Notes under the pieces: model-generated
The model's database searches: none
The model's input: the letters and a program-made list of their open reading frames with translations, nothing else
What the model was told of the DNA's origin: nothing
Shown: positions 5,669-27,871 of the stretch, piece after piece
Layout: each line of letters starts with the position of its first letter
Numbering within the stretch: position 1 is the stretch's first letter
Source: Schmidtea nova
Lineage: Eukaryota
Direction of reading: 5' to 3'
Length of the DNA: 64,000 nucleotides
Assembly (NCBI GenBank): GCA_044892505.1
Contig: CM097883.1
Coordinates: 349,680,001 to 349,744,000 of the forward strand
Position numbers and translations under genes: made by a program

Positions 5669-7180
5669 TTACAAGTGTCGAGAATTGTAGCGAATAATAC
5701 AGTCCAAAAGGTGCTTATCGAAATGGACATGATTTTCACTAACTTTGCCAGCTGATATCCACATGGCTTTAAAATCTGTATGTACTGCCTCCGATGCTTG
5801 TTCATTGAAATGGCCGAGGCTGGAGTTCTTTAGTTTACAAAAATGAATCAAGTGAACACAAACAATGTGTACTGCTGTTGTTATTGCTATGCCCGTATTC
5901 ATATAAGCTGTCTCAAATTTTTTTATAGACTCTTCAAAACCAGCATGTAGCACCTGACCAAAACAGTCGCTAATAACACTGTTAAATGCTGCAAAGGATG
6001 TTGCAAACTTAATGATTTCAGATTTCTTACCAGTGGTGTGGAGAGTAGGTGCATGATGTAGAAGTCGACGACACATGTTACCTGTAAACTCGCCGCCATG
6101 AAGCTGAGGTTGTACGAGACCAATTTGTTGGAGCCACAGTTCAGCTACTTTAGGAAATGATGACTGCAGTTGATGAAACATTTTGTTTGTAACGCGCAGC
6201 ATTAAGTGGAGCTGCAGCGGAGGAATAATTTCAATCAGCATTTGTTTATCCTCGCCTTGAATCATAGGAGTGTGCACGCAGCTTTTGAAATCTTTAGCAG
6301 ATGCTTTAGGGTTGTATACTCTTCTCTTGTTCTCATAATCCCGAGCTTGCTTTTTGATTTCACCTATCGCTCTTAGTTTCCAATTGTTGTTGATTTTCTT
6401 GATATTTGAAAATTCTTTCTTTGGACATTCGCAAAACATACAAGGATACGCACTGGAATGTGATTGCAGTCCACATAATATGTTTGCTATTTTCAGATCC
6501 ACCGCGTTAACATACTGAAAGTCTATTTGATCAATTTTTAAGAGTTGTAGAATGTAACGAACATTCTCATATGTTTCTTTAACCTTATAGGCTATTGCGA
6601 TGATAATGAGCTTCTTCACGCTTGTATCGAGCATGGCTTTTTCAATAAGTTTCTTTGACGGATTAGTGATGGGTTTTTCGGTGGATTCAGCATTGCTAAT
6701 GTTTAGACAGAATTTAAAAAAATCTTCACCTGTATCAATTCCAATCTTGATGGAAACATTTTCTTTATCCAAATTTCTCTTCTCACACACTAGGTCTATC
6801 AGTCCGACAACATCATTACAGTAAACAACTGTACAGGATGCAGTCGCATCAACTCCTTTGTTGGTAGAGGTGCATTCAAAATCGTGGCTAAGGCAATCAA
6901 AATATTCAGCACATGTTTTGTTACGTCGTTGAAGTTGTTCTCCAATGAATGATTCTACCGAAGTTCGGCCAAACATGCTTCTAACAAAGGGTATAATTTT
7001 ACGTTTCATATCATTATTAGGCGCTGACAATAAATTTTGAAGTTTCGTTACACCATCTACACTAACTTGCACAATGGACAGACTTTCTTTAGAGCCAACT
7101 TGAACTTGCAGAGGGTATGAACCACCAGAATAAAACTCCTTGGTTGACACTTTGTATCTTTCAGTCGATCGTTTTATCAT
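5669..7180 (-). CDS. Chapaev transposase catalytic core (503 aa)
   Basis: Long ORF inside the TIRs with KIGIDTG, AVDLKIANILCGLQSHSSAYPCMFC, LQLHLML and LGHFNEQASEAVH motifs. Confidence 0.8.
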   Translation of the reverse strand: MIKRSTERYKVSTKEFYSGGSYPLQVQVGSKESLSIVQVSVDGVTKLQNLLSAPNNDMKRKIIPFVRSMFGRTSVESFIGEQLQRRNKTCAEYFDCLSHDFECTSTNKGVDATASCTVVYCNDVVGLIDLVCEKRNLDKENVSIKIGIDTGEDFFKFCLNISNAESTEKPITNPSKKLIEKAMLDTSVKKLIIIAIAYKVKETYENVRYILQLLKIDQIDFQYVNAVDLKIANILCGLQSHSSAYPCMFCECPKKEFSNIKKINNNWKLRAIGEIKKQARDYENKRRVYNPKASAKDFKSCVHTPMIQGEDKQMLIEIIPPLQLHLMLRVTNKMFHQLQSSFPKVAELWLQQIGLVQPQLHGGEFTGNMCRRLLHHAPTLHTTGKKSEIIKFATSFAAFNSVISDCFGQVLHAGFEESIKKFETAYMNTGIAITTAVHIVCVHLIHFCKLKNSSLGHFNEQASEAVHTDFKAMWISAGKVSENHVHFDKHLLDCIIRYNSRHL

Positions 7181-7230
7181 TGAAGTTGCGTTCTTCTATC
7201 TGTAGATACACACAATTCTACAATGTTCTT

Positions 7231-7722
7231 TCATAAAGCCTGTACCGTACACTTATGAGGAATGCCCCTCCCATAACGAGTCCGACATGCACTGCACACC
7301 GTCATGATTTTTTCCGGTGGGCCACAGGCTGTACTTTCGTCTTTTCGTGGGCGACCCTTCTTTGCCTTTGACATTGACTTCCCAGATTGCCTTGCTGTTT
7401 CGCAAATTTGACACTCGCAAACTGGAATCGGGTCTGATCTAGTTGTTGTAGTATATGGCGCTATCACACGGAAATCAAAAGGTGTCGGTAATACGCTGGT
7501 AGACTTCTTTCCGTCAATAATGTCTAGCAAATTAGAGCGACACCTGCTGCACATTCCACATGGTAAATTTTGTTTTGTCATCTCGTAAGTTGGCATAAAG
7601 TAACGACGAATTCTTGCTAACACGACATCTGTGATATTACAGTTTGATTGGTTGAAGCAAATAAGGCATACTTTCTTCCTGTTTTCTTCATGATTCAATG
7701 CACGGGTTTCATGAAATGGCAT
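7231..7722 (-). CDS. Chapaev transposase N-terminal exon (Chapa zinc finger, AT-hook)
   Basis: HEENRKKVCLICF...LPCGMCSRCR...CECQIC Cys/His pattern and KKGRPRK. Preceded by an acceptor-like TTTTCAG on the minus strand. Confidence 0.75.
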   Translation of the reverse strand: MPFHETRALNHEENRKKVCLICFNQSNCNITDVVLARIRRYFMPTYEMTKQNLPCGMCSRCRSNLLDIIDGKKSTSVLPTPFDFRVIAPYTTTTRSDPIPVCECQICETARQSGKSMSKAKKGRPRKDESTACGPPEKIMTVCSACRTRYGRGIPHKCTVQAL

Positions 7723-8015
7723 CTGAAAAGAAAATTTTAGCGTTACATTTTTAGAATACTAAACATGAATATCATATTTGAAAAAAAAACATTGCACTAA
7801 TAAAGTAACTTTTACAAAATACCTACTTAAAAATGAAATAAAATATGACACTCAATCTTACCACCGTATTTTTGTAATAATGACTTGTAGATCACACCAC
7901 CGCGCAAACTTGAACTTTAAAACAAACGAATAGTTTACTACTTAATACCAAATAATATTATTATATTCTGACATTGAAACATATTAAATGTGTCGCCGTC
8001 TAAAACTACAGAAAA

Positions 8016-8203
8016 NNNNNNNNNNNNNNNNNNNNNNNNNNNNNNNNNNNNNNNNNNNNNNNNNNNNNNNNNNNNNNNNNNNNNNNNNNNNNNNNNNNNN
8101 NNNNNNNNNNNNNNNNNNNNNNNNNNNNNNNNNNNNNNNNNNNNNNNNNNNNNNNNNNNNNNNNNNNNNNNNNNNNNNNNNNNNNNNNNNNNNNNNNNNN
8201 NNN
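8016..8203. other. Assembly gap (N run)
   Basis: Run of N bases. Confidence 1.
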
Positions 8204-8401
8204 ATTAACTTAAAACTATAACGTTCTATGCTTTACTCCTAAATAGCTCAATCAGGATTTTGTAGATATACTGTTTCAACATCTGTGCCTATAGTACTAT
8301 TAAAAAACGCAATCCATTTAGGGGTCGTTTTTTTAAAGTTTAGATGGCCCTTCCGGTACAGTGTGCTCCCCTATCGTTTGATTCAGTCGCAATTGGGTAT
8401 A

Positions 8402-11774: not shown

Positions 11775-12331
11775 GTATATAATTTAAACAAAACCCAAAA
11801 TAGCGATAAAACTATAAAATAGCGCTTTTAATTTGAATAAATATTTACTTTATTTAAACAAAACACAAAATAATGAAAACTTCGAAAATAGCGCTTTCAA
11901 TTTAAATGAATATTTACTTTAGTTAAAGAAATACAAAACGGCTAACAATTATATTAAAAATAGCGCTTTAAATTTAAATAAATATTTACTTAATTTAAAC
12001 AAAACACAAAATGGCGATAAAACTATAAAATTGCGCTTTTAATTTAAATAAATATTTACTTAATTTAAACAAAACACAAAATGGCGATAAAACTATAAAA
12101 TTGCGCTTTTAATTTAAATAAATATTTACTTTATTTAAACAAAACACAAAATGGCGATAAAACTATAAAAATAGCGCTTTTAAATTTAAATAAATATTTA
12201 CTTTATATAAACAAAATACAAAATGGCGATAAAACTCTAATGGTAGCGCTTTTAATTTGAATAAATATTTACTTTATATAAACAAAATGGCGATAAAACT
12301 ATAAAAATAGCGCTTTTAATTTGAATAAATA
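11775..12331. repeat. AT-rich minisatellite (~60-65-bp unit), left part
   Basis: Tandem TTTACTTTATTTAAACAAAACACAAAATGGCGATAAAACTATAAAAATAGCGCTTTT... units. The array resumes at 29453. Confidence 0.9.
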
Positions 12332-12872
12332 TGTTGGATTCATGGAAGGTTTAATAAAAATTCTAATGATTGCTAGGGATCTCCCATCCATGATCATGCA
12401 TAAATAGTCGTAAGTTACACTCGAGCGCCCTTGATTATTTCCCTTGATAACCAAGTTGGTGATGCACAGGGTGGCTAAACAATGAGGGGCAGGTGAGCAC
12501 TATTGCTAGGACTACTCCCCCTTTATGTTTACGGGTTCACGCGGCCGTAGAAGGACTTACGCAATTGTTGTTATTCGGTGTACGTGTGATTTTATGTATT
12601 TATCATTAATCGCAAAAAAAAAAACAAAAACGAAACTACTAATTCGATAATATTTAACTTTTCAACGCTACTCCCTTTGTTGTGTGACATGTGATTTAAA
12701 TTTAATTATTATGAATTGTGTAACCGAAGGAAATACATAGGAAATAACAAAAAAAAACAAACAAGCAAAAGTTTAATAAACACAAAAATCTGATATCATG
12801 TTATGATTTTATTTGCTACAAAATTTCCTTGAAAATTCCTTCGGGAGGGAATATCTCTGATAACCACTCGGC

Positions 12873-13406
12873 TTACGACATTTCTGCTATAGTGGCCACT
12901 TGTGCTTGCAGCTGCTGAGAGAACAGCTTCCTTTGGCGACGGCGCTTGGAACCGATTCGCTTTCTCTTGTTCGTTTTTCCGACGGGATTTGGTGCAACGG
13001 TGGATTCTATCGGACTTTGTACTGTTGTTACTTCGAGACCATCGGTGTCGGTACTGACTGAGCAGGCCACTTTCTGTTCTCCTACCCATTTCTGGTAGGT
13101 GATGGGACGGATTTGTGATCTCAATTCGGACTCGATAAAAGAAGTCGTCACAGAATGGAGACATCGGCGCAACTCAATTTTTGTTGCTTCCCATTCTGTG
13201 CGATAATCTTCAGCTGTCTTTTGAGCCCTTTCCGTTCGACTCATCTGTTCCTTCATACGGGCTGGGGCGAACCAGCTGGTTCGTAAATACTGAATCTGAG
13301 CTTCTGCCTTAGCTCGTAATGCTTTTTCTTGATTTAACTCCTTTTCTAATGCTCGGCGGATTCTCCACGCCTTATCCAATTCCCGTTGTTGGCTGGTTTC
13401 CGTCAT
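12873..13406 (-). CDS. LTR A-encoded coiled-coil protein with C-terminal Arg-rich motif (177 aa)
   Basis: Intact GC-richer ORF with heptad-like N-half and KRKRIGSKRRRQRKL. Parallels 49656-50219. Confidence 0.6.
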   Translation of the reverse strand: MTETSQQRELDKAWRIRRALEKELNQEKALRAKAEAQIQYLRTSWFAPARMKEQMSRTERAQKTAEDYRTEWEATKIELRRCLHSVTTSFIESELRSQIRPITYQKWVGEQKVACSVSTDTDGLEVTTVQSPIESTVAPNPVGKTNKRKRIGSKRRRQRKLFSQQLQAQVATIAEMS

Positions 13407-13926
13407 GCTAAATGATAAACCTAGTTTATGATGCTGAAATTATACTACCCACGGCTAATACTATCCGCCGAGTGGAAAAATTTGGATAATTAAATTAATA
13501 AATGGATCGAAATTCAACTAATAACAAACAAAAAAAAAGATCAACACCATTTAATTGATGAAAACATATTAATTCATAGTAGTGTGAATAACATTGTCAG
13601 CGAAAACGCTTCGCTTGGAGGCCGTGAACGGGGGTAATGTGCAACCCGTGATTGACTGGATCTCGTCGGATGTGAGCCATTGAGCAGTTCAGTTTGGGGC
13701 GTCCTTGGCCCGTTTTTGGTAGGCGATTCGGGATCAACCCAAATTGAAGCAGCTTGTGAGGTGAGATATATCCCCAATGGATTACTGTTGTTGGATTTCC
13801 GGCGATGTCCGTTAAAACTATAATGAACTGAGTTGTCGTTTCGGGGTCTCCTTCGTCCGGAATTTCCCATCCGGGGCCTCCTTCGTTCGGAATTTCCCAT
13901 CCGGGGCCTCCTCGATATATGACAGT

Positions 13927-15067
13927 TGTTGAGGTTCCAAATATTTGCTATTTGCAATCTCAACTTGTTATTGGGGTGATTCTTATATAAATATCAAAAG
14001 CAAAGTTTGTTTTTCAAAATTTTATTAATACAATAAAATTACTTTTTATTTCGTTTACAATTGTCTACGAATAACTCAAATTCTTTATTACACAAATTTA
14101 AAAAGAAAAAGTCGTATCAAATCAATTCTTGCAATTGAACCTATTGGGTGACTGTTATGTAGTGCGTGCTATATTTAATTGTGGATCCAATGTTTCTGAT
14201 CCGGGTTTTAATAAGTTTTTCAAGATTGCCTTGAAAACTCAATTTGCGCTAATTTTAAATCTTGATTTTACACTAGATTTTAAAGCTAGGATTTTTTTGG
14301 GCCCCTTTACTGATTTTTTCTTTAGTTTATATAGTAAAATTTGGTATGGATAAATAATTTAATTTCCGGTCTGATATTAAAATATTATTAAATTTAGTTT
14401 TCAATTTATTCTATACTCTGCGATTAAAATAATTATATTTCAATTTCCGTTCTTGTCGTGATATTAAAATTTTCAATTTATTCTATACTCTGCGATATAA
14501 TTATATTTTAATTTCCGGTCTTGTCACGATATCAAAATTTCCAAATTATTTCGTATTCTGTGATATTAAAATATTATTTAGATTTGATTATTTTTAAACA
14601 ACTGAATTAAATTATTTTATTTATTGATCTGTTTGTTTTATATGTATATACAACTCATAAAATAATAAAAGGAATAAAATACACATCAAGATACACATCA
14701 AGATAAAAGGAATAAAATACACATCAAGATACACATCAAGATAAAAGGAATAAAATACACATCAAGATATATTAAAAGAAAACAAATGTTTGTTGAGAAA
14801 TGTCACAATAATAAAATGTCACAATCATATTAATTTTCTTGATTTCTGTGATGGGAGTTGCAATCTTTGTTGAGAAATGTCACAATAATAAAATGTCACA
14901 ATCATATTAATTTTCTTGATGGGAGTTGCAATCTTTGTTGTGTGGCTTGGATTGGGATTCTGTGTATTGGGATTCCGCGTAAATGTTGATCCTATAGCTG
15001 TTAGGCCCTGTCCTATAATATTTATTTAGGACAAATGCTTGGATGGGCTTCCCTCGATCATCCAACA
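13927..15067 (-). repeat. 3' LTR of element D
   Basis: TGTTGAGG...CATCCAACA; identical to 26731-27871 wherever spot-checked. Confidence 0.95.
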
Positions 15068-16877
15068 TTCCTCCCAGGGCCGTCAAGGTAATGTCCTCAT
15101 TACCTTTTTCACTCAGGACCATTTCAATTTCTTTATCCTTTAATTTCATTATTGTTCTCTTGAATCCTTTCTTGATTGCCAGATTTAGGGTATCATCTTC
15201 CTCAATTCGTCTTCCGAAATGGGTACATAATTGTTTTTCCGTTATCTCTTTTTGGTCGGCACTTATAATGAAGCTAGGTTCTTCCTCCTCTTCTATTTCC
15301 ATTTCAATGTCTGGTTCTGGTCCTAATTCGTCTTCTGCTTTTATTTTACTCTCCATTTCTTTTGTGAAGTCTTCTTCGTCGTCTTCCTCAACTGAAAAAT
15401 ACTCTTCGTCCGAATCTAAATCGCATATGTCTTCTCTTTCTTTGTATTTTTGTATTAGTTGCGGTTCGTTTTTGATCATTATTTGATTTTCTGGTGGTCC
15501 TTCTTCTTTTGTAATCATTAGGTCGTCATCACCATCTTCATGTATTGTTTCTTCCATATCTGAATTTTCATCCATTATTATACTTTCTTCTTCGCTTTCC
15601 TTCAACTCTTCCATACATGATTTTCTGTTTTGCATCTGGTATAGGTCTCCTTTCATTTCGATATCGTCTGTTATTGGTGTATCACTTTGTAACGATGTTG
15701 AATCTGCTGAATTCCATTTTATTATAGGTTCCCATTTGTCTTCTACTATTCCATATATTACCTTTAATATTGTTGTTGTCTTTCTGGCAGAAAATGGCTC
15801 ACTTTCTACTAATGCTTCATTCAGTCTCTTATCTTTGTACCATCTCTTATGGTATTTAATCACTTGGTAAGCTAAGTTAGATAGCTTAATTTTGAGTGGA
15901 TCCACGTTTTTCACGAATGAGCACATAAATTTATCTCCGGCCATTTCTCTCATTCCTGCAATGTTGTCTAGACCAAATGTTAGCATTTTTAATTTATCTA
16001 TCATATCAAATCCTATGATTATTTTTCCCCACAACAGCTCTCTAATATCCCATAGCGCCTGGTACTCATCTTCATTTCCGACGATACTTTCTTTATTAAC
16101 CATTGTTTTTTCTGTGCAGAAGTTTTTTATTTTCGTTCTTGGGGTTATCTTTTTGTTGTATATAATTTCACCGTTGTATTTTCTTATACATACTTCTACT
16201 GGTCGCTTGTTGTCATTTTTATCAATTGCAAATTTTGCATCCATGAATATAATTAGTTGGTGTCTCTCTTCTGTGGATAATTCATTGTGTGTGAAAGAGA
16301 TTTTTTCATTTATCCAGCTTTGATCGTACCAAGGTTTTGAAGGGATTGGCGGCATTGATTGGAATGGATTTGATATCAGAGGGATATAGAGTATCTCGAT
16401 TCCTATGACACACGGTAAGTTGTTCATTTGGATTATGAGGTGATTAAAATCGTCTGGCATACTTCTGTTGTTTGTAATTGTTTTGATGATGATTGAACAA
16501 TTACTTGTTGTGATTATTGGTACTTTATGTTGGCAAATTGATACCTCGGTTTTTGTCATGTGGAATAGGATTCTATGTGGTACCTTTTTTCCTTCGATTA
16601 CCGCTTTGTCGACATTAAGATGTTTTTCAAATGTGCCGATTAGGTCTTTTAATTTTGTTCGTCGAGCTTCATTAAATTTGATAATGTGTAGTTCTCTTTC
16701 TTCAATTTCCACTTTCATATCATTTGGGATGCATACTTGGTTTGGGAAGCTTCTGATTGTGATTGGATTTCCATCGGTACATATTTTGTTTTGTAGGGTT
16801 TTGTAAAAGTTTAGAGGGTGTTTGTTGATCATAGCCACATAGTTCATAGATCGAGAATAATTTGGCTCTGATTGCAT
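14907..16877 (-). CDS. Accessory ORF (~656 aa from MQSEPNY): DEDDh/REX4-ISG20-like exonuclease fold and acidic tail, ending inside the 3' LTR
   Basis: IIFMDAKFA...PVEVCIRKYNGEIIYNKKITP...NFCTEKTMV...RELLWGKIIIGFD follows the REX4/ISG20 pattern. The last ~53 codons lie in the LTR. Confidence 0.72.
   Translation of the reverse strand: MQSEPNYSRSMNYVAMINKHPLNFYKTLQNKICTDGNPITIRSFPNQVCIPNDMKVEIEERELHIIKFNEARRTKLKDLIGTFEKHLNVDKAVIEGKKVPHRILFHMTKTEVSICQHKVPIITTSNCSIIIKTITNNRSMPDDFNHLIIQMNNLPCVIGIEILYIPLISNPFQSMPPIPSKPWYDQSWINEKISFTHNELSTEERHQLIIFMDAKFAIDKNDNKRPVEVCIRKYNGEIIYNKKITPRTKIKNFCTEKTMVNKESIVGNEDEYQALWDIRELLWGKIIIGFDMIDKLKMLTFGLDNIAGMREMAGDKFMCSFVKNVDPLKIKLSNLAYQVIKYHKRWYKDKRLNEALVESEPFSARKTTTILKVIYGIVEDKWEPIIKWNSADSTSLQSDTPITDDIEMKGDLYQMQNRKSCMEELKESEEESIIMDENSDMEETIHEDGDDDLMITKEEGPPENQIMIKNEPQLIQKYKEREDICDLDSDEEYFSVEEDDEEDFTKEMESKIKAEDELGPEPDIEMEIEEEEEPSFIISADQKEITEKQLCTHFGRRIEEDDTLNLAIKKGFKRTIMKLKDKEIEMVLSEKGNEDITLTALGGMLDDRGKPIQAFVLNKYYRTGPNSYRINIYAESQYTESQSKPHNKDCNSHQEN
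15068..15080 (-). promoter_or_regulatory. Putative polypurine tract
   Basis: ...CTGGGAGGAA directly abuts the 3' LTR on the minus strand. Confidence 0.55.
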
Positions 16878-17301
16878 TGTTAATTGAAGATACAAGAATC
16901 GGGATATTGATTGACAATAAAACACTAAGAATCGGGATATCGACTGATAAGTTAGTAAACGATAAAACACTAAGAATCGGGATATCGACTGATAAGTTAG
17001 TAAACGATAAAACACTAAGAATATAGATTGATAATGAGATCGAGATATGATTTTACGACTTGATTTGTGATTGGATTGAAAATTGGAACGATTTGATTGG
17101 GAGTTGGTTTGATTGTTTTGATTGTGCTGAGGATTTGATGTAAAACTGGCTTTATTGGATTGTTTGCCAAATGGGTGACTTGTTTTTCTAAAAATAAAAT
17201 GTAAATTTTTATGTTGAGAGCGTATTTCAGGTTTAACCTTATACGCTCTTTTATAGATACAGATATATGTGATTTTAATATATATTATTGACCAATTTAA
17301 C

Positions 17302-19302
17302 TTATACCAATGTAGACCTCGAATATTCACCTGGTATATATTTACCCAAATGGAAATGCCCTGGTACATTTCTGACCAGTTGGCTCCGATACCGCTGCCT
17401 TTTCCATTTGTACTTTTTATAAACTTGTACGCTAGTTATTAAAGCTAAAACTGCTAATGCTATTATTGATGTTGTGATGACATAAAAAGGCCAATGTGGA
17501 TTTTTATCTTTTTTACGAAATGCTTGTAGTTCCTCTAAGTTATGTATCACTATTGGTCTTCCTTGCCTTATTTTGATAGGTTCTTGTTTTTGTTTTTTGG
17601 CATTGTATTGTTTTTGGAGTTTGGCTATTCCAGTTCTTGTTGGTGTTTCGTTTGTATGTAGTGTGGTATTTAGTCTATTATTTGATGTCGTTGTTGTGCT
17701 TTTTGTTATGTTTTGGTTTTTTATTATATCCTTGGGTAATTGTTCTGTTTTTATCTCTTTGCATCTCCATGTTGTTGTATCTGTGTTTCTCTGTATGCAG
17801 ATTTTATATATTGTATTAGGTGTTAGTTTTGTGAAATTAATATAGTTTCCTCTTTCAATTTCGTTGGTTGTTCTGTCGTCCTTTCCTTTTATCATCTTTG
17901 GGTTTTTTCCATTCGTTGTTTGCATGTATAAATCAATTACTCCTCTATTTATGATAAATGCTCTAACTTCGTTTGTTGATATTTTTATTAATACTCTGTC
18001 AAATTCTATTGTTTCGGTTGAGCCAACAATTGTTATGATTGTTAAGAAGATAGCTGATATTATTAGTTTGTTATGAGATCTTAGATTATACTTGTGAGGT
18101 TTATCTATCGTGACCTCGGCTTCCGCCAACTTGCATCTGTTGACATGTACTACTATTGGATCCTCGTTTTTATGCTTTTGTAAATGTAAATTCTCATTTA
18201 TTACTTTTACTACTTCATATGGACCTTTATATGGTCTTGCTAATTTTGTTGTCTTTCCCTTTCCTACTTGTGGTGACATAAGTCTAACCTTATCACCTAC
18301 CTTAAAGTTGTGTGGTTTACTATTTTTGTCGTAGTCGGCTTTGTATTGTTCTTGTCTATATTTGACTTTTAGATTGGCTACTTTATACACTTCTTGCAGT
18401 TTTTCCTGCATTAGTGTGACATAATCTGGTGCATCCAAATATTGTGATACTCGAGGTTCAAATATTGTATCTATTGGTGTTGCTGGTTCTCTTAAAAACA
18501 TTAAATAATACGGCGAATACCCTGTTGTTTCGTTTGGAGTGATATTATGAATGTATGTGCATTGACTTATGTATTCGTCCCAATCATTTTGATTTTTTCC
18601 TACAAAAACAGCTAGTCTGCTTAGTAATGTCCCATTAAATCTTTTTACTAGTCCATCAGTTTGAGGGTGATACGCTGTTGTGTTGATCTTTTGCATGTTA
18701 AAAATATTAGCTACTCGTTTTATTAATTCACTAGTAAAATTTGTTCCTTTATCTGTTAATAATCTTTTGGGTGTGCCTATCTTGAAAATAATTTTTTCTA
18801 TAAGCAATTTAGCAACTGTTTCTGCTGTTTCGTCTTTTGTTGGAAATGCTTCTGCCCATCTAGTAAAATAATCACTAAATACTAGTATATGTTTATTCCC
18901 ATTAATTGTAGTAGGTAATTTACATAGAAAATCCATTGCACATAGTTCCATTGGTGATGTTGTTGCTGGAATGGGGTGTAACGGCGCTTTTGTTTTTGTA
19001 CCTGTATTTTTTCTTGTTGCACATATTGTACACGCGTTACACCATCTCTTAACATCTTTCTTTAGTTCTTCCCAGTAATATTTTTGTAATAATCTACTTG
19101 CTGTCTTTCTAGATGATAAGTGACCTCCTAATGCTCCATCGTGATATTGTAGTAGGAGTATTTGTCTTAATTTCTGAGGTACTACTATTAATTGCTTACC
19201 GTTGAAATCTTCTATTACTACTAATTTCTTTGATATTTTATATTTTGAATTGTTTTCTTTTCTGATTTCATTCCTTATTCTATTGATCTCTGGGTCTTTC
19301 AT
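17302..19302 (-). CDS. Integrase (HHCC, DD-K, GPY) fused to a predicted type I membrane protein
   Basis: HDGALGGH...CNAC; MDF; TDKG; GLVKRFN; KGPY. Then hydrophobic LIISAIFLTIITIVG, FN3-like LTPNTIYKICI, a Thr-rich stalk, and TM FYVITTSIIALAVLALITSV with a basic tail. Confidence 0.9.
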   Translation of the reverse strand: MKDPEINRIRNEIRKENNSKYKISKKLVVIEDFNGKQLIVVPQKLRQILLLQYHDGALGGHLSSRKTASRLLQKYYWEELKKDVKRWCNACTICATRKNTGTKTKAPLHPIPATTSPMELCAMDFLCKLPTTINGNKHILVFSDYFTRWAEAFPTKDETAETVAKLLIEKIIFKIGTPKRLLTDKGTNFTSELIKRVANIFNMQKINTTAYHPQTDGLVKRFNGTLLSRLAVFVGKNQNDWDEYISQCTYIHNITPNETTGYSPYYLMFLREPATPIDTIFEPRVSQYLDAPDYVTLMQEKLQEVYKVANLKVKYRQEQYKADYDKNSKPHNFKVGDKVRLMSPQVGKGKTTKLARPYKGPYEVVKVINENLHLQKHKNEDPIVVHVNRCKLAEAEVTIDKPHKYNLRSHNKLIISAIFLTIITIVGSTETIEFDRVLIKISTNEVRAFIINRGVIDLYMQTTNGKNPKMIKGKDDRTTNEIERGNYINFTKLTPNTIYKICIQRNTDTTTWRCKEIKTEQLPKDIIKNQNITKSTTTTSNNRLNTTLHTNETPTRTGIAKLQKQYNAKKQKQEPIKIRQGRPIVIHNLEELQAFRKKDKNPHWPFYVITTSIIALAVLALITSVQVYKKYKWKRQRYRSQLVRNVPGHFHLGKYIPGEYSRSTLV

Positions 19303-19362
19303 CTGTTCCTCATATATATCTATTGGCTTTTCTGCTACTAGTGCAAATATTTCAAGTGCTCC

Positions 19363-22300
19363 TTATTCTGGTATTCTTGATAGTGCATCTGCGTTTTTAT
19401 TTATTCTACCTTGTTTATATATAATTTTTAGGTGCATGTCTTGTATTTTCATTGCCCATTTAAGTAATCTACTTGATGTATCTTTATGTTTCCATAAGCC
19501 TTCTAATGGTTTATGGTCTGTTCTTATTATCACTTCAGTTCCGTAGATGTATGGTTTGAATTGTTTTAGGGCAAATACTATTGCGTAACATTCTTTTTCT
19601 ATTGTTGAATACCTCAGCTGTGCTCCTTTTAATGTTTTACTGGCATATGCTATTACGTAATCTTTCCCTTTCTCTTCTTCTTGGCCTAATACTGCTCCTA
19701 CGGCTTTCCCGCTGGCATCCGTCATTACTATAAATTGGTTTTCGAAATTTGGGTATCTTAACACTGGTGCTGTTATCAATCTTTCTTTTAGTTTGTCGAA
19801 TGCTTCTTGATGTTCTTTTGTCCATTTCTTTTGTATCTTGTTAACTTTATTGTTAATTTCTTGTACTATTAACACGTCTTTGCATTCTCCTTTTGTTTTA
19901 ATTCCCTTTGTTAGTTCTATTATAGGTGTTGCTATCTTTGCATAATCTTGTATGAATTTACGATAGTATCCTGTTAAGCCTAAAAACCCTTGTACTTGTT
20001 GTACTGTTTTTGGTATTGGGAATTTCTTTACAACTTCTATTTTTTCTGGATTTGGTTTTATCCCTTCTACTGTGACTATATGCCCTAAAAATAGTGCCGA
20101 AGACTCTGCCCATTTACATTTGGTTGGTTTAATTTTTATCCTTGCTTTTCTTAGTCTCTCAAGTACGTTTGTTATATCTTTTAGATGTTCCTCGAATGTC
20201 TTTGATGATATTAATATGTCATCCATGTAAACTGCGCAATGTTGTACATTTACTAATATTGTGTTCATTAGACGTTGAAATGTAGCTGGCGCATTAGTTA
20301 ATCCGAAGGGTAATCGTGTGTACTCATATAAACCATGCTCAATAACAAATGCTGTTTTTTCTGCATCCCCTTCTTCCATTTGAATTTGCATATACCCCTT
20401 ATTCGCATCAATGACTGAAAAATACTTAGCATCCCTAAGTTTATCATATTGCTCTTGTGCTTTTGGGAATGGATATGAATCTTTTACTGTTACATCATTT
20501 AATTTACGATAGTCAATGCACATTCTTATTTCTCCGTCTTTCTTTTTGACGGGTACAATGGGTGATGCCCACTGTGAAAAACTTTGTTTTATTACACCTG
20601 CGTCTTTTAATTCTTTAATTTGTCGCTTTATCTCCTCTCTTAGTTTGTATGGTACGCTATATGGTCTTTGTTTTATTGGTCTTGCATTGCCCGTATCTAT
20701 TACATGTTTGATTATGTCAGTATCTCCTAAATCAAATTCATGTTTTGCAAAAACATCGCTGTATTCATCTATTAGTGTCTGTAATTGTGCTTGTTGTGTT
20801 ATTGTTAGGTATTTATTATTGATTTTCACTTTGTCGTATGATTTTATACTATTTGTCTTACTAGGTTCGACTACTCCATTGCCGTTATTATTCATCACGC
20901 TTATCTCACTGACTTCGTATGTTTTTTCTAATTCACCTTTGAATAATTTTCCCAATTTCGTACCTTTGTGTATTTTAACATTACTTTTTTCATAATTTGC
21001 TATTCTCAATGGTATTATTCCCTTTCTCGGAATTACGCATTCATTGGTTAGCATTATATTCTGATTTTGTATAATTGCCGTTTCTGGCTCAAAAATAAAA
21101 GTGTCCTCACTTTTGATGTTAACTTTTAAGGGAATTATATGATCGCATTCATATTCCAATTCAAATGCTTCTAATACAACAACTTCTGTGAACTTGGATT
21201 TATGTTTAATTGCTTTTCTCTTTATCGTATTATCTGTTAAATCTATAATGCAATTTTCTAACTTGTTGAGTATATCGATTCCCAATATACATATGCTATT
21301 ACATTCTTGCACCACTTTAAATATGTGGTTTATTACCTGTTCTGGTGTTTCGACTATTAGTTCTATGTCTCCCTTTAGTGGAATACGATGTGCTGATAAC
21401 GATACTACTTTATCCGTTGTGCTCATAATATTTCTTTTTTGATCATCTGTCAGTTGATCTTCTCTAATTAAGGATGTTGCTGCTCCTGTGTCTACTAATG
21501 CATTTATGATTATATTGTTTATAATTATTCTAAGTCTTGGTCTTGCTTCGTTTGCTGCATCTAATCGTTCCATTGTTTCGACTTCTAAGCTATAACAACC
21601 ATATATCTTTTTAGGTTCACAATGACAATTCTTGTTTTCTCTAGGAATTTTGATTTCTATATTTTCTTGTAGCTCTTTTAGTTGTTCTCGTTGGTTTTCA
21701 TATAGTCCTTGTTGTGGTACATTTCCTTCATGTGATATATGCGCTTTAATTATTTCCTCATCGTTTTCATCATCTACCAGTAATTGCCTTTCTTCATTCC
21801 TTTGGACTTTTATTAAACGTATTTCCTTGTCGTGTTTCGCCGTAATAAGATATTTAGCTATAAATGGGCACAAACATGCTAATAATTTATATGAATTTCC
21901 AAATACTTGTTTTAGCTGTCTCAGTGATACTAGAGAAGAACATATCATTTTTAGTAATGCAACCGTATAATATAAACCTAAGATTGTAGAAAACATGTTT
22001 CCAAGGACTGCAAAGTATCCCCATATGCTATATAGTACTTTATATGCTACTTTTTTGAAGTATTCTTTTGATAATAACACATCAAAGTTGTAATTTCCTC
22101 CGTAACTTCCTTCGATAACTCTGTTAACCATTATTGAAAGTACTCTTTCTTTTTCGTTTGGAAATAGCATGTGTTTTCTTGCACTTTCTATAGCTTCTCT
22201 CGTATATATGCCATTACTGTCCATATCGTTGATTTCTTTAAACTCTAATCTTTTTTCTAGCTCTATGAGTTCTAATTTGAGTGGTTTCATTGCCTCCTTT

Positions 22301-23283
22301 CTATCTGACATAGATATCCACATTTCGTCATTTATTTTGTATAATGGGTCTAATAGGTTAGTGCATTTTTCTATTTTTCTCGGTATATATGTTTTTTCTG
22401 TTAATATTCTAGTAATTGGTTGAAGGTATACCCTTTCTCCTTTATATATTACCGGTAATTCATTAGTGCACTGATTATTTGTTGCTAACGATACACTAAC
22501 AGGTTTACATTGAAATGTCTGTATCACTTCTCCTACTATCCTTGCAAATGTTCCTTCTTCTGAGAAGATAATTGGTGCCATTAAATCTGGGTTTGTTACC
22601 GCCACTGCCATTTTTGTCTTCAATATTTCTCTGTTGAGTTTGCAATCGCTCATAATTGTTGATTGATATACTTTATCTAATTGTACTAGTTGGTTATGAT
22701 AGAAAAAATCGATTTTATTGTTGAAGTATGATGCAAGTTTGACGTCGAATTTATTTACTTTTTGTTTTGCATCTTTGACTTCTTCTTTGCTTATGTATAT
22801 CCCTTCATAATTAGTTTGTATTATTTCCTTACCACATTTTACACTTTTCCTTTTACTAACAAACCTCATTGCTTCGTTTTCAGATTCTGACATATATATT
22901 GTTGGTGTATCTTTTTCTTGTACAATTGTTGTTTTCCTTTTTTGATCTCTCACCCTTTTTGAGTCTACTTCTGTGAACTGTTTTCCTTTGATTTCCCTAA
23001 ATTTTAATGATTTTAATTTTGTTAACTGACAATCATATTTATCTATTTTGTATATTAGCATTGATTCTCCTGTATCGCAATAAGATTCTTCTAATGTACA
23101 AAATTTGTATATCATCATTTTCTTTGAGCTGCTGTCGAATGATGCTTTGAACTTTCTCAGTTCTACCATGTAGTGTCTCCTTACTACAACATTACTCAGT
23201 TTTTCGCCCCATATTGTATATTCTCCTCCTTCACAATATCCTCCTTTTGATGCCCATCCCACGACATTTACATCTTGTCTCAT
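19363..23283 (-). CDS. pol: Chuvirus-like glycoprotein ectodomain and TM fused in frame to protease, RT and RNase H
   Basis: GYCEGGEY...VVVRRHY; GEVIQTFQCKPV...CTNELPV...YLQPITRIL; TM at ~21870-22040; LVDTGA (PR); SPIVPVKKKDG..RMCIDYRKLN and YMDD (RT); TDAS/EKEC/TDH/DALSR (RH). Confidence 0.92.
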   Translation of the reverse strand: MRQDVNVVGWASKGGYCEGGEYTIWGEKLSNVVVRRHYMVELRKFKASFDSSSKKMMIYKFCTLEESYCDTGESMLIYKIDKYDCQLTKLKSLKFREIKGKQFTEVDSKRVRDQKRKTTIVQEKDTPTIYMSESENEAMRFVSKRKSVKCGKEIIQTNYEGIYISKEEVKDAKQKVNKFDVKLASYFNNKIDFFYHNQLVQLDKVYQSTIMSDCKLNREILKTKMAVAVTNPDLMAPIIFSEEGTFARIVGEVIQTFQCKPVSVSLATNNQCTNELPVIYKGERVYLQPITRILTEKTYIPRKIEKCTNLLDPLYKINDEMWISMSDRKEAMKPLKLELIELEKRLEFKEINDMDSNGIYTREAIESARKHMLFPNEKERVLSIMVNRVIEGSYGGNYNFDVLLSKEYFKKVAYKVLYSIWGYFAVLGNMFSTILGLYYTVALLKMICSSLVSLRQLKQVFGNSYKLLACLCPFIAKYLITAKHDKEIRLIKVQRNEERQLLVDDENDEEIIKAHISHEGNVPQQGLYENQREQLKELQENIEIKIPRENKNCHCEPKKIYGCYSLEVETMERLDAANEARPRLRIIINNIIINALVDTGAATSLIREDQLTDDQKRNIMSTTDKVVSLSAHRIPLKGDIELIVETPEQVINHIFKVVQECNSICILGIDILNKLENCIIDLTDNTIKRKAIKHKSKFTEVVVLEAFELEYECDHIIPLKVNIKSEDTFIFEPETAIIQNQNIMLTNECVIPRKGIIPLRIANYEKSNVKIHKGTKLGKLFKGELEKTYEVSEISVMNNNGNGVVEPSKTNSIKSYDKVKINNKYLTITQQAQLQTLIDEYSDVFAKHEFDLGDTDIIKHVIDTGNARPIKQRPYSVPYKLREEIKRQIKELKDAGVIKQSFSQWASPIVPVKKKDGEIRMCIDYRKLNDVTVKDSYPFPKAQEQYDKLRDAKYFSVIDANKGYMQIQMEEGDAEKTAFVIEHGLYEYTRLPFGLTNAPATFQRLMNTILVNVQHCAVYMDDILISSKTFEEHLKDITNVLERLRKARIKIKPTKCKWAESSALFLGHIVTVEGIKPNPEKIEVVKKFPIPKTVQQVQGFLGLTGYYRKFIQDYAKIATPIIELTKGIKTKGECKDVLIVQEINNKVNKIQKKWTKEHQEAFDKLKERLITAPVLRYPNFENQFIVMTDASGKAVGAVLGQEEEKGKDYVIAYASKTLKGAQLRYSTIEKECYAIVFALKQFKPYIYGTEVIIRTDHKPLEGLWKHKDTSSRLLKWAMKIQDMHLKIIYKQGRINKNADALSRIPE

Positions 23284-23406
23284 TTTTGCCCCTATCCTTG
23301 CTTCTAATTCTATTCCTTTATGACCGCTATATTTTACTTTTTTTGTTTTAAATGCATCTTCACACTATTGGTGACAATATTACTGCTTCGGGTGTCCACG
23401 TAGGTT

Positions 23407-26064
23407 TTAACACTGTTCTTGCCCCAACATGACATATATATATGCTTCCTCCTGATACTTTACTATGCACTCTTTGGCCTCTGTATGAATAAAGTCTGAT
23501 TCTTGATAAACATGGAATATTTGAGGCTCTGACATGATTAATTTAGTTGGATTTGCTTCAGGGCAATTTTCAACATCTAACAGTGAGTATTTTTGTCCCC
23601 ACTTTGGATTTTGACAATCATATGCTACCATTGCATTGCCTCCCTTGATTAAATCTAATAACAAAGTGATAATGACTATTACTATGGAGGTTATCGATTT
23701 ACTCTCTGTCTTTGGTTTTACTGTTGCTTTCTTTATTAATTGTTTTATTACCTCATCTGTATCACTCTCTTTATTCGTCGTATCTTTATCATATAATACT
23801 TTCCATCCTCCTTTCTTTTTTATCCATGGTATTGCCTCTACTTTCAATCTTTTAAACATCATTGTTGCTACTTTTTCTAATTGCTCTTTTGGATTTTCCT
23901 TTATGAGCTTTTTATATCTTGCGGCCAAGTATGCCATGGCCGTTATTATTTTATCTTTATCTATCCCTGTATTAAACATGATTTTTAACACTGTTTTTTC
24001 ATTTGCTTCCTCTGTAACTAGTTCTTTAGTATCCTTTTTAATTAACATCATCCTTTCAGTTATATTTTCAATAAGTACTGTTGGCTTTGTTTCTGGAAAT
24101 AGCTTAATATTCATTGCTTTTATTACTTCTTTTATTTTGTTTACGTCATTATTATCGTCTTGATACTCTGGTTGTTCATGTTTATGTTGATTTGCAATCT
24201 CTCTTAATCGTTCTGCTGTCTTCCTATTCTCCGATTTTTCTATTATTTCTGATTTTCGAGGTCTTCCTCTACCTCGTTTTGATGTTTCTGCATCTTTTGT
24301 TTTTGCTTCCTCAGCTATTCTTTCTATTGTTTCTTGTAAGTTACTATACTTTTCATCTATAGGTTTAAATATAATTTCTTCATCCATTACTGATTTCTTT
24401 GTTTCGCTAGGTGATTTATCCCATAGCCTAAATAATCTATCAAAATCGTTTTCTTCATTTATACTCAACTCAACCGACGGTACTGGCGTCATTATTTCAT
24501 TGATCATTTGTTTTTCTACTGTGGCTACCACAATATTATCACTTACTGGGTTTATCCCATAATCGATTAAGTACTCGTCACTTAATAATTCTATTCCGTT
24601 AAAATATAATTTTATTACATCTTTCTCTCCTATGGTTCCTGGCCATTTGGCTCTTACCATTCGTTTTAATTTGCTCACTTTAGTGCAAGTATGCATCTTT
24701 TGTTTAATACTAAAAAAATAATTATCATTTGATTCAATCGTTACATTTAGTGTTTCATGCAATTTTTCATTTTTTCTTATATATTCTCCATAACATTTCA
24801 ACATCTCTTTTATTTCTATTTCTAATTCAAATACTCTCGTTACATTTTGTCTCTTTACCATCATTGGTATTAAATTTCTAAGTCTCTCTAAATCAATCCC
24901 ATTAACCTGTATTTTATTGATTACTCTTAATGTTTCATTGTCATCAAACGGTTGCTTATGCAATACCTCTTTAAATTCCTCTATTAATTCTTTTTGTCTA
25001 TTTTCTTCTGTAAGAAATATTTCATCTGCTTTTCTAATTTCCTTTAACTCATCATTATCAATATCTACTTCATTTGTAAAGGTGCTAAATTCATTTATAG
25101 ACATTTCAAGTTTTCTCTCAATAAGTCTTCCATATTGAGTTTTAAATTCTTTTAGTTCCTCTCTTAATATATTTATTTCTTTATTTGCTGATTCGAGCTC
25201 AGCACTATTTACTTGTTTTATCTCAGGCTCATTTTTAAATCTTACTCTTATTGGTGAATCTGCTCGTGGTTTATTACATACCTTTGCTAGGTGGCCATAC
25301 TTTTGGCAATTATAACATTTTATTTGTCCATTAAAATTCACTTTATCTCTACCATCATTATTATAAGTATTTCGCCTCACTGGGCTATCTTGCCTATTTC
25401 TCGAATTATCTCTATATCTATTATCTCTTCTATTATATTCGAAGCGACTATCTCTATTATTTTTATTATATCCACTGTAACTGTTTCTGTTATAACCAGA
25501 ACGACTATCTCTAAAATTATCGAAATTTTTATTTCCTGGACTATTAAACCTTCCCCTGTTTTCAGGTGATTGGCTTCTATTAGGACTAAATTTTCTTCTA
25601 TTATTAACAAAATTCAAGTATAATTGTTTCATTTCTTCCCAGGGAATACTATCATCCTTATTTCTCAACTCAGGTTTTACCTCGGGTTGTTTTTCAACTT
25701 CTACAGCATCTACCTCTGGTTTAAATCTATCTCTTTGTATTGCTTCGATACGTTTTGCCTTTTGAACTAACTCATTTAAGTCTTCATACTCAATTGTAAT
25801 TAATGCTTTGTATAAATATTTTTGGATGCCGTTCCAAAACTGATCCTCAATAAATTTACTAGTGTGATCTCCGGCACCAAATGCCTTTTTTGCTAATTCT
25901 GTTATCGTGTATATATATTCACCTACTGATTCTCTGGCTCCTTGGTATCTACTTCTAAATTTTTGAACATTTATTTTTTGTAAGTCTCGATCTATTACTA
26001 TTTCTTTTCTAAGGTTTGTAACCAACTCTTGATAATTAATACCGGCATCAATCTCCGGCACCAA
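23407..26064 (-). CDS. gag: Gag continuation with CCHC knuckle, ubiquitin-like domain, AT-hook, Bcl-2-like domain, signal peptide and glycoprotein N-terminus
   Basis: CYNCQKYGHLAKVC; KVSKLKRMV...KLYFNGIELLSDEYLIDYGI; KRGRGRPRK; IMFNTGIDKDKIITAM...WIKKKGGW; hydrophobic ITSIVIVIITLLLDL followed by AYDC...SLLDVENC. Confidence 0.85.
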   Translation of the reverse strand: MVPEIDAGINYQELVTNLRKEIVIDRDLQKINVQKFRSRYQGARESVGEYIYTITELAKKAFGAGDHTSKFIEDQFWNGIQKYLYKALITIEYEDLNELVQKAKRIEAIQRDRFKPEVDAVEVEKQPEVKPELRNKDDSIPWEEMKQLYLNFVNNRRKFSPNRSQSPENRGRFNSPGNKNFDNFRDSRSGYNRNSYSGYNKNNRDSRFEYNRRDNRYRDNSRNRQDSPVRRNTYNNDGRDKVNFNGQIKCYNCQKYGHLAKVCNKPRADSPIRVRFKNEPEIKQVNSAELESANKEINILREELKEFKTQYGRLIERKLEMSINEFSTFTNEVDIDNDELKEIRKADEIFLTEENRQKELIEEFKEVLHKQPFDDNETLRVINKIQVNGIDLERLRNLIPMMVKRQNVTRVFELEIEIKEMLKCYGEYIRKNEKLHETLNVTIESNDNYFFSIKQKMHTCTKVSKLKRMVRAKWPGTIGEKDVIKLYFNGIELLSDEYLIDYGINPVSDNIVVATVEKQMINEIMTPVPSVELSINEENDFDRLFRLWDKSPSETKKSVMDEEIIFKPIDEKYSNLQETIERIAEEAKTKDAETSKRGRGRPRKSEIIEKSENRKTAERLREIANQHKHEQPEYQDDNNDVNKIKEVIKAMNIKLFPETKPTVLIENITERMMLIKKDTKELVTEEANEKTVLKIMFNTGIDKDKIITAMAYLAARYKKLIKENPKEQLEKVATMMFKRLKVEAIPWIKKKGGWKVLYDKDTTNKESDTDEVIKQLIKKATVKPKTESKSITSIVIVIITLLLDLIKGGNAMVAYDCQNPKWGQKYSLLDVENCPEANPTKLIMSEPQIFHVYQESDFIHTEAKECIVKYQEEAYIYVMLGQEQC

Positions 26065-26512
26065 ATGCCTTTTTTGCTAATTCTGTTATCGTGTATATAT
26101 ATTCACCTACTGATTCTCTGGCTCCTTGGTATCTACTTCTAAATTTTTGAACATTTATTTTTTGTAAGTCTCGATCTATTACTATTTCTTTTCTAAGGTT
26201 TGTAACCAACTCTTGATAATTAATACCTTTACATGCTAAATTATTGTATGCCTGTAATGCGTATCCCTTTAAGTATAATGGGATTCGTTGTTTTAATTCA
26301 TTTGTTTTCCATCCGCAAGCCTCTGCATACTGTGTGATTTCGGCAAAAAGGTCGTCGAACTTTTCAGGGTCTCCCTTATATGATTCTATTGGTAATGTTT
26401 TTATAAAATTATGGCTTCTTATGTTGTCTGTATTACTGTTACTTCCACTATTGCTGCTGCCTGTACTATTATTACTCATTTTGTATATTATCTTTTTTCT
26501 CAACTTGTGCAA
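26048..26512 (-). CDS. gag: Gag N-terminus, truncated by an internal tandem duplication
   Basis: IESYKGDPEKF...AEACGW...IPLYLKGYALQAY resembles a retrotransposon gag core. First ORF after the PBS. Confidence 0.8.
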   Translation of the reverse strand: MHKLRKKIIYKMSNNSTGSSNSGSNSNTDNIRSHNFIKTLPIESYKGDPEKFDDLFAEITQYAEACGWKTNELKQRIPLYLKGYALQAYNNLACKGINYQELVTNLRKEIVIDRDLQKINVQKFRSRYQGARESVGEYIYTITELAKKAFGAGD

Positions 26513-26710
26513 TATTTCAGGTGGCTTATCTATAATGACTTTCTTTATCTTTTTACCTATTTTGTTATTGTTAACCTTAAATGTTTGTATATCTTTGAAT
26601 TTCTGTTTTGGTCAATAATATTTAGATAAATATATTTTCCCGATATATATATTACAATATCCCTCTGATCGCAATTCCTATCCCCCAATTGATATTATAA
26701 TATTTTATGG

Positions 26711-26728: not shown

Positions 26729-26730
26729 AA

Positions 26731-27871
26731 TGTTGAGGTTCCAAATATTTGCTATTTGCAATCTCAACTTGTTATTGGGGTGATTCTTATATAAATATCA
26801 AAAGCAAAGTTTGTTTTTCAAAATTTTATTAATACAATAAAATTACTTTTTATTTCGTTTACAATTGTCTACGAATAACTCAAATTCTTTATTACACAAA
26901 TTTAAAAAGAAAAAGTCGTATCAAATCAATTCTTGCAATTGAACCTATTGGGTGACTGTTATGTAGTGCGTGCTATATTTAATTGTGGATCCAATGTTTC
27001 TGATCCGGGTTTTAATAAGTTTTTCAAGATTGCCTTGAAAACTCAATTTGCGCTAATTTTAAATCTTGATTTTACACTAGATTTTAAAGCTAGGATTTTT
27101 TTGGGCCCCTTTACTGATTTTTTCTTTAGTTTATATAGTAAAATTTGGTATGGATAAATAATTTAATTTCCGGTCTGATATTAAAATATTATTAAATTTA
27201 GTTTTCAATTTATTCTATACTCTGCGATTAAAATAATTATATTTCAATTTCCGTTCTTGTCGTGATATTAAAATTTTCAATTTATTCTATACTCTGCGAT
27301 ATAATTATATTTTAATTTCCGGTCTTGTCACGATATCAAAATTTCCAAATTATTTCGTATTCTGTGATATTAAAATATTATTTAGATTTGATTATTTTTA
27401 AACAACTGAATTAAATTATTTTATTTATTGATCTGTTTGTTTTATATGTATATACAACTCATAAAATAATAAAAGGAATAAAATACACATCAAGATACAC
27501 ATCAAGATAAAAGGAATAAAATACACATCAAGATACACATCAAGATAAAAGGAATAAAATACACATCAAGATATATTAAAAGAAAACAAATGTTTGTTGA
27601 GAAATGTCACAATAATAAAATGTCACAATCATATTAATTTTCTTGATTTCTGTGATGGGAGTTGCAATCTTTGTTGAGAAATGTCACAATAATAAAATGT
27701 CACAATCATATTAATTTTCTTGATGGGAGTTGCAATCTTTGTTGTGTGGCTTGGATTGGGATTCTGTGTATTGGGATTCCGCGTAAATGTTGATCCTATA
27801 GCTGTTAGGCCCTGTCCTATAATATTTATTTAGGACAAATGCTTGGATGGGCTTCCCTCGATCATCCAACA
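26731..27871 (-). repeat. 5' LTR of element D
   Basis: Direct repeat of 13927-15067, adjacent to the PBS. Confidence 0.95.

What the first reader, a model, noticed from the sequence alone, without database searches (positions are those of the whole stretch)
15750..16270. REX4/ISG20-like exonuclease fold with several catalytic acids apparently swapped to lysine
Seen: ExoI reads MDAK (canonical DxE), ExoII GFDMIDKL (canonical GHxLxxDL), and the ExoIII-like position reads FSARKT (canonical HxxxxDA). Inference: by-eye alignment gives three acid-to-Lys swaps, suggesting a metal-free pseudo-nuclease that binds or shields RNA ends, for example against host silencing.
Basis: partly seen in the sequence, partly recalled or inferred. 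Interest (0 to 1): 0.7.

Follow-up and report, generated by a model that had tools for sequence, protein, structure and literature searches.

The report
Dead exonuclease gene in envelope retrotransposon
A retrovirus-like jumping gene in an animal genome carries an extra gene whose exonuclease-type domain has lost four of its five catalytic residues yet stays strongly conserved, so it likely binds RNA without cutting it, while related elements keep the catalytic residues and one carries both forms side by side.

Summary
The domain is real, and it is an ISG20/REX4-type DEDDh fold (profile E 3e-17; model pLDDT 79.5, best structure matches ISG20L2 and ISG20). It lies in the last ORF of a young, envelope-bearing, Burro-like Ty3/gypsy element, behind a predicted cupin-fold domain. 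Two acids became Lys (ExoI Glu, ExoII Asp). The third Lys sits on a non-catalytic, variable column; the ExoIII Asp is Thr and the catalytic His is Phe. This D-K-K-F-T set is kept in five variants whose silent sites are saturated (omega about 0.02-0.06), so it is not decay. Two sister families in the genome keep D-E-E-H-D at the same place. In public data, 24 of 46 two-domain relatives are intact and 17 degenerate; one element carries both forms in tandem. Loss of canonical catalysis is likely (about 0.85); RNA binding without cutting is inferred only (0.45), and nothing here links it to silencing. The gene plus LTR also behaves as a swappable cassette on a near-identical core. The scan had noted Burro-type elements elsewhere in this genome, not this gene.

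The parts
15732..16268 (-). DEDDh (ISG20/REX4-type) exonuclease-fold domain with degenerate active site (D-K-K-F-T)
16233..16241 (-). ExoI D-x-K: Asp kept, Glu column is Lys
   Evidence: D and K in 61 of 61 covered rows
15993..16013 (-). ExoII G-F-x-x-x-D-K: catalytic Asp/Glu column is Lys, with a family-invariant Asp one column before
   Evidence: aligned to ISG20L2 D267; K in 61 of 62 rows, one Met
15777..15794 (-).
   Evidence: F and T in 62 of 62 rows, K in 35 of 62
15804..15851 (-). Family-specific basic and aromatic insertion of about 13 residues just before ExoIII
   Evidence: 8 of 16 positions invariant over five variants; loop 23 against 9-11 residues in most intact relatives
16383..16814 (-). 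N-terminal domain, predicted cupin-like double-stranded beta-helix, homologous in intact and degenerate relatives
   Evidence: Foldseek cupin hits only at E about 1e-3; conserved IPN.K, Arg, His, Glu
14907..17435 (-). Last ORF of the element (842 codons stop to stop; first ATG 17369, another at 16877; true start not determined); acidic tail; its last 161 nt lie in the 3' LTR
13927..15067 (-). 3' LTR, 1141 bp, identical to the 5' LTR; purine tract just upstream; target-site duplication CAGT at 13923-13926
26731..27871 (-). 5' LTR; primer-binding-site-like sequence directly behind it; target-site duplication CAGT at 27872-27875
23407..26611 (-). gag region with zinc knuckle and a Bcl-2-like segment (about 23803-23997); in this copy interrupted by a 184-nt tandem duplication
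   Evidence: zf-CCHC 3.9e-4; Bcl-2 6.9e-6, below the curated cut-off
19363..23364 (-). Fusion-glycoprotein (env-like) domain followed in frame by protease, RT and RNase H; this copy is broken at both ends of this frame
   Evidence: Monjiviricetes_fusion 1.3e-75, RVP, RVT_1, RT_RNaseH
17302..19362 (-). Integrase, followed in frame by an unassigned segment with two hydrophobic stretches
   Evidence: no Pfam family for 17305-18120

Best explanation
This is the accessory 3' gene of an envelope-bearing Ty3/gypsy retrotransposon, encoding a predicted cupin-fold domain joined to an ISG20/REX4-type DEDDh domain that has lost four of five catalytic residues and is likely a dead nuclease kept to bind RNA without cutting it. 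Shown: the fold assignment, the residue losses, strong purifying selection on the altered form, and intact-looking relatives at the same position in related elements. Inferred: an ancestral element captured a REX4-like exonuclease; a copy lost its metal ligands, perhaps after a duplication like the intact-plus-degenerate pair in L137; the kept ExoI Asp would be neutralised by the two Lys residues where the two metal ions normally sit; the new basic residues and the basic insertion beside the pocket would hold RNA. The most likely use is handling or protecting the element's own RNA, or tying up RNA that host defence needs. The target is not known.
For: Residues: D-K-K-F-T against D183/E185/D267/H322/D327 of ISG20L2; each single mutation of these abolishes ISG20L2 activity (PMC10899777, passages). 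Constraint: among five variants pS 0.72-0.88 against pN 0.13-0.25; omega 0.02 for five variants and 0.06 for nine sequences, log-likelihood -2184.96 against -2428.60 with omega fixed at 1; the K, K, F and T codons have each changed silently between variants. Structural residues shared with intact relatives are kept (PR, D255, GIR, Y360, W367). About 13 positions are K/R in all five variants and not in the intact relatives. K or R also stands at the ExoI Glu column in 8 of 17 degenerate library relatives. Precedent: PXL and Exuperantia keep the fold, lack the DEDD residues and bind nucleic acid (PMC13659232, passages).
Against: No binding or activity was measured. Net charge of the domain (+7 to +12) is not clearly above that of intact sisters in the same genome (+7, +9). 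ISG20L2's RNA-contacting R226 and W229 align to Cys and Lys, though they are also changed in intact family C. Removing ExoIII from ISG20 abolishes its RNA binding (PMC9157404, passages). The residues kept by both intact and degenerate forms include a set in the cupin-like domain, so selection may act on a function away from the pocket. The domain itself shows purifying selection, not the positive selection often seen in defence conflicts. The model's coordinates could not be inspected, so the Asp-Lys geometry is an inference from the alignment.
Confidence: 0.45

Rival explanations
1. The nuclease is dead, but the protein works through protein or small-ligand binding, centred on the cupin-like domain and its interface; the Lys, Phe and Thr simply plug an unused pocket. 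It could be a decoy for a host factor or a partner or inhibitor of the intact form made by other elements.
For: IPN.K, Arg46, His91, Glu146, SF, PR, D255 and GIRD are kept in both intact (20) and degenerate (16) library proteins, while the catalytic columns scatter in the degenerate ones. The N-domain is at least as conserved as the nuclease domain across variants (75 of 144 positions invariant). One element encodes a degenerate and an intact copy next to each other (L137/L138).
Against: In this family the replaced pocket residues are themselves fixed across saturated variants, more than a mere plug seems to need, and new basic positions are fixed too. The window element has no intact copy of its own. 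No partner was tested.
Confidence: 0.3
2. The site is rebuilt, not dead: the kept ExoI Asp, a family-invariant Glu on strand 2 and the Asp before ExoII hold one metal, and a Lys acts in catalysis as in PD-(D/E)xK nucleases.
For: D198, E213 and D279 are invariant over the five variants, and E213 and D279 are not shared with the intact relatives. A DEDD-less Maelstrom with RNase activity is recalled from memory; the search for it returned nothing.
Against: Three of four acids and the general-base His are gone. Other degenerate relatives lose even the first Asp (16 of 17). D279 lies one step round the helix from the canonical position.
Confidence: 0.12
3. A decaying relic carried along by a successful element.
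For: Four catalytic residues are lost, and the stem branch to the family is long. This copy has breaks in its other frames.
Against: Omega 0.02-0.06 with saturated silent sites; the same long open frame recurs in many copies of each main variant.
Confidence: 0.03

Closest known systems
ISG20 / ISG20L2 / REX4 / SDN1 subgroup of DEDDh exonucleases (Pfam PF00929; PMC10899777 and PMC9157404, passages)
   Same: Fold, strand order and scaffold residues; best sequence and structure matches.
   Different: E, D, H and D replaced by K, K, F and T; 13-residue insertion before ExoIII; fused to a predicted cupin-like domain; encoded by a retroelement.
DEDDy ORF3 of bdelloid Juno and Vesta LTR retrotransposons (PMC5408684, passages)
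   Same: An exonuclease as last accessory ORF of an LTR element; the DEED variant reported there is also seen in sister families B and C here.
   Different: Those are DEDDy (RNase D-like) with intact residues; this one is DEDDh, degenerate, has an extra N-terminal domain and sits in an element that also has an env-like gene.
Host DEDD pseudonucleases: Exuperantia and PML PXL (PMC13659232, passages), Maelstrom and EXD1 (as mentioned in PMC5408684)
   Same: DEDD fold kept without catalytic residues; PXL also keeps just one of four acids. This is the works-like model.
   Different: They are host genes, Exu and PXL with a SAM-like domain. The matches here are to ISG20-type enzymes, so the loss appears independent. 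Binding is shown for them and not for this protein.
Burro / GYPSM1 giant gypsy elements of planarians (PMC6431247, passages)
   Same: gag - Bcl-2-like - fusion glycoprotein in frame before PR-RT-RH-IN; accessory ORFs.
   Different: This element is 13.9 kb against more than 30 kb. No MATH, BIR or ankyrin hit in the frames scanned. The passages on Burro name no exonuclease or cupin.
CERV of C. elegans Cer1 (PMC10309623, abstract only)
   Same: An accessory protein of an invertebrate LTR element acting on the element's own genomic RNA: a precedent for one possible role.
   Different: No homology was tested or is claimed.

Membership tests
DEDDh exonuclease superfamily (fold) | DnaQ-like alpha/beta fold with three Exo segments in order | tested here: met
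   Profile E 3.4e-17 to ISG20L2; Foldseek E 1.7e-7, target TM 0.75-0.79 for ISG20L2 and ISG20; Atlas RNase_T 0.93
Active DEDDh exonucleases (ISG20/REX4) | Four acidic metal ligands D, E, D, D | tested here: not met
   D, K, K, T
Active DEDDh exonucleases (ISG20/REX4) | ExoIII general-base His | tested here: not met
   Phe in 62 of 62 rows
Active DEDDh exonucleases (ISG20/REX4) | Metal-dependent 3'-5' cleavage | not testable with these tools
   Needs an assay
DEDD pseudonucleases (Exu/PXL type) | Fold kept, catalytic residues lost, under constraint | tested here: met
DEDD pseudonucleases (Exu/PXL type) | Nucleic-acid binding without cleavage | not testable with these tools
   Only indirect hints, one of them neutral (net charge)
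DEDD pseudonucleases (Exu/PXL type) | EXO-SAM domain arrangement | tested here: not met
   The modelled partner domain is N-terminal and beta-rich; the acidic tail was not modelled
Ty3/gypsy LTR retrotransposon | LTRs TG..CA, target-site duplication, PR-RT-RH-IN order | tested here: met
Burro-type elements | Bcl-2-like motif and env between gag and pol | tested here: met
   (Bcl-2 hit below the curated cut-off)
Burro-type elements | Giant size, over 30 kb | tested here: not met
   13,945 bp
Burro-type elements | RT groups with described Burro elements | not tested
   No Burro reference sequence was available from the tools
Cupin superfamily (N-terminal domain) | Double-stranded beta-helix | tested here: inconclusive
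   Foldseek cupin and 2OG-oxygenase hits at E about 1e-3 to 4e-4; Pfam Pirin_C_2 at 0.083 in 2 of 18 members; no cupin family in 37 library proteins; VIA-align did not complete

The most novel reading that the evidence does not exclude
Envelope-bearing invertebrate retroelements carry an unrecognised cupin-DEDDh accessory family that exists as an active small-RNA- or dsRNA-degrading enzyme and as a lysine-for-metal dead form that clamps RNA ends; the dead form, swapped as a cassette with the LTR among near-identical cores, is an element-encoded antagonist of RNA-based host defence.
Probability: 0.18. Interest if true: 0.85.

Novelty: new variant of a known kind. Interest (0 to 1): 0.58.

Why it matters
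Retrotransposon-borne exonucleases and host pseudonucleases are each known. A retroelement-encoded, strongly conserved dead DEDDh domain with natural intact-looking relatives was not found in the paper searches run here. It offers a matched natural pair, intact against dead and in one element side by side, for asking what these accessory genes do for the element, which PMC5408684 leaves open. The Pfam-invisible dead forms also show that such accessory genes are being missed in annotation.

Tried and rejected
Pfam gives no family for the window ORF or domain. The word-based protein search with the window ORF found nothing among 2404 candidates; the full profile search then found the family, so that blank was a sensitivity limit. 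MAFFT misplaced the insertion in alignment A2; A3 is used. No RNA holder was listed, which says nothing on expression. Four unlabelled contig sets from one study cover the whole element; their depth is no copy number and was not used. No relative was found in viral contigs or for P0050 in metagenome contigs, so the context of the library's degenerate proteins is known only for the L137/L138 case. The tree of 81 rows is the quick version, and 4 of its 26 'degenerate' rows are merely truncated; it cannot count the losses, and long branches may pull the dead forms together. Positive selection as the cause of the 60-67% identity between variants was rejected, because silent sites are saturated. 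A dUTPase-like reading of the N-domain's IPN motif (recalled resemblance) was dropped because no dUTPase is among the listed structure matches. The arenavirus nucleoprotein row in the Atlas (0.88) is a lead only. VIA-align did not complete. The original Burro paper was not held, so its text and supplements, which may annotate this ORF, were not seen; Repbase-type annotations were not available either. No complex prediction was run.

Full report
Setting. The finding lies on the minus strand in an 842-codon stop-to-stop frame, 14907-17435. This is the last ORF of an LTR element at 13927-27871. Its 1141-bp LTRs are identical, begin TG and end CA, and are flanked by a CAGT duplication, so the insertion is recent. 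The order is gag with a zinc knuckle, a Bcl-2-like segment, a mononegavirus-type fusion glycoprotein, protease, RT, RNase H, integrase, an unassigned segment, then this ORF, which runs 161 nt into the 3' LTR. This matches the layout described for Burro elements (PMC6431247, passages) but at less than half their size. This copy is broken in gag, at the start of the env frame and between RNase H and integrase. The host was not identified.

Fold. Alone, the domain is nearly invisible: no Pfam family, ISG20L2 and ISG20 at E 0.003-0.004. A profile of 18 family members hits ISG20L2 at 3.4e-17, ISG20 at 3.8e-14 and SDN1 at 2e-10. The model of residues 1-373 has pLDDT 79.5 and pTM 0.79. Its best Foldseek matches are ISG20L2, ISG20, Pan2, SDN1 and RNase T. 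The Atlas agrees (RNase_T, 0.93). The upstream domain is beta-rich and matches cupins only weakly (E about 1e-3), so that label is a prediction.

Residues. ISG20L2 uses D183, E185, D267, H322 and D327, and each single mutant is inactive (PMC10899777, passages). Through these columns read D, K, K, F, T in the window. The third Lys is on the preceding, non-catalytic column. One search tallied 62 rows of fetched family copies. They were chosen from two hit lists, not at random; four duplicate or partial loci were left out, and one duplicate remains (L089 = L009). Most rows are near-identical copies; the independent units are five variants.

Selection. The genome holds at least 150 scored matches of 2057 candidates, in variants from 100% down to 60% identity. 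Between variants pS is 0.72-0.88 and pN 0.13-0.25. A codon model gives omega 0.02 (five variants) or 0.06 (nine sequences), against a much worse fit at omega 1 (-2184.96 against -2428.60). Saturation makes the exact value rough. The codons for the two Lys, the Phe and the Thr have changed silently while the residues stayed. The altered site is therefore maintained.

Relatives. Pfam RNase_T gives 88 matches in the genome. Of 30 loci fetched, 28 belong to a sister repeat family with D-x-E, GHDLxxEL and H-x-x-x-x-D, one is a host-type gene and one is spurious. A third family reads the same. Both sit behind integrase in elements of the same layout, with RT 53-55% identical. The profile search listed the best 150 of 2672 hits. 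With one earlier hit added, 46 of 151 proteins carry both domains: 24 intact, 4 intact as far as covered, 17 degenerate, 1 not covered; none reads D-K-K-F-T. Eight of the 17 have K or R at the ExoI Glu, and two of them also have K at ExoII. In a quick tree the host-like proteins join the intact element forms, and the degenerate forms group apart with weak support. The direction is intact to degenerate; the number of losses is open. In metagenome contigs, 4 of 12 loci reach into pol, and in all four the gene lies behind RT-RNase H-integrase. L137 carries a degenerate and an intact copy as two open frames; the window element has only the degenerate one. 'Intact' means residues only: activity has not been shown for any retroelement-borne DEDD protein in what I read (PMC5408684, passages).

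Cassette behaviour. Over 21 copies (20 picked to span four variants, plus the window) the ORF differs by 27.5-35% between variants and 0-2.4% within, while env differs by 0.5-4.1% between them (15 copies covered). Protease and RT distances do not follow the variant. The window's LTR matches copies of its own variant and not the others, apart from the 94 nt overlapping the ORF. Old alleles of ORF plus LTR thus ride on a recombining core, as template switching would produce (inference).

Mechanism. Loss of canonical two-metal catalysis is likely (about 0.85). What the domain does instead is inferred. For RNA binding: two Lys in the metal-ligand columns beside a kept Asp, about 13 family-specific fixed basic positions, a basic and aromatic insertion next to the pocket, and the precedent of PXL and Exuperantia (PMC13659232, passages). 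Against: net charge is similar to that of intact sisters, known RNA-contact residues are changed, ExoIII is needed for RNA binding in ISG20 (PMC9157404, passages), and a conserved set shared by intact and dead forms lies in the N-domain. I put RNA binding without cutting at 0.45, protein or ligand binding at 0.3, a rebuilt active site at 0.12 and decay at 0.03. A role against silencing is one reading of the first option and has no direct support. Expression is unknown.

Novelty. Exonuclease ORFs in LTR elements (PMC5408684) and DEDDh genes in DNA transposons (PMC9587614, passages) are known, and so are host DEDD pseudonucleases. The searches listed no paper that, by title, abstract start or the passages read, describes this cupin-DEDDh family or a dead form in a retroelement. 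The original Burro paper and its supplements could not be seen. Earlier notes of this scan mention Burro-type elements in this genome but not this gene. Verdict: a real feature, a new variant of a known kind, interest 0.58.

Noticed in passing
window 13927-17435 against L084-L089, L114-L133: The last ORF and the LTR travel together as a cassette. Over 21 copies the ORF differs by 27.5-35% between variants and 0-2.4% within, while env differs by only 0.5-4.1% between them and protease and RT are mosaic.
   Followed up: yes
L137:6539-9642 (same sequence in L138): A related element carries a degenerate copy (S-R-Q-T-E) and an intact copy (D-E-D-H-D) as two open frames behind integrase.
   Followed up: partly
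L052-L079, L081-L082, L090-L094: Two sister families in the same genome with D-E-E-H-D at the same position; RT 53-55% identical to the window's.
   Followed up: yes
window 16877-17435 (-): The low-complexity 5' part of the frame stays open in three variants and keeps a Met motif that overlaps the end of the integrase frame; it holds 45-nt tandem repeats. The start codon is unresolved.
   Followed up: partly
window 17305-18120 (-): Segment behind integrase with two hydrophobic stretches and no Pfam family; 82-85% identical between variants, against 97-99% for integrase.
   Followed up: partly
window 23803-23997 (-): Bcl-2-like segment in front of the env-like domain, 96-99% identical among copies.
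   Followed up: partly
window 12300-13926 and 27872-29400: The element is inserted in an older repeat; a related copy lies at about 36850-38700.
   Followed up: partly
window 40814-42232 (-): TRAF-like gene (RING, TRAF zinc finger, MATH) spread over three frames.
   Followed up: partly
window 5354-8336: DNA-transposon-like unit with 104-nt inverted ends (98%) and two ORFs without a clear Pfam family.
   Followed up: partly
window 61527-63998 (+) and 56532-58063 (-): hAT-type transposase in two pieces (DUF4371, Dimer_Tnp_hAT); the second stretch looks transposase-like by eye but has no Pfam hit.
   Followed up: partly
window 12873-13439 and 49656-50219 (-): Two ORFs of about 188 codons with similar Arg-rich ends by eye and no convincing family.
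   Followed up: no
L051:1180-2364 (oriented): A canonical DEDDh gene, the strongest RNase_T match in the genome (E 1.3e-23) and unrelated to the element profile; ERI1-like by recalled motif.
   Followed up: no
P0103; P0038, P0052, P0054, P0057, P0061, P0066: One degenerate relative ends in a RING finger; several library proteins hold two to four tandem DEDDh domains of mixed intact and degenerate state.
   Followed up: no
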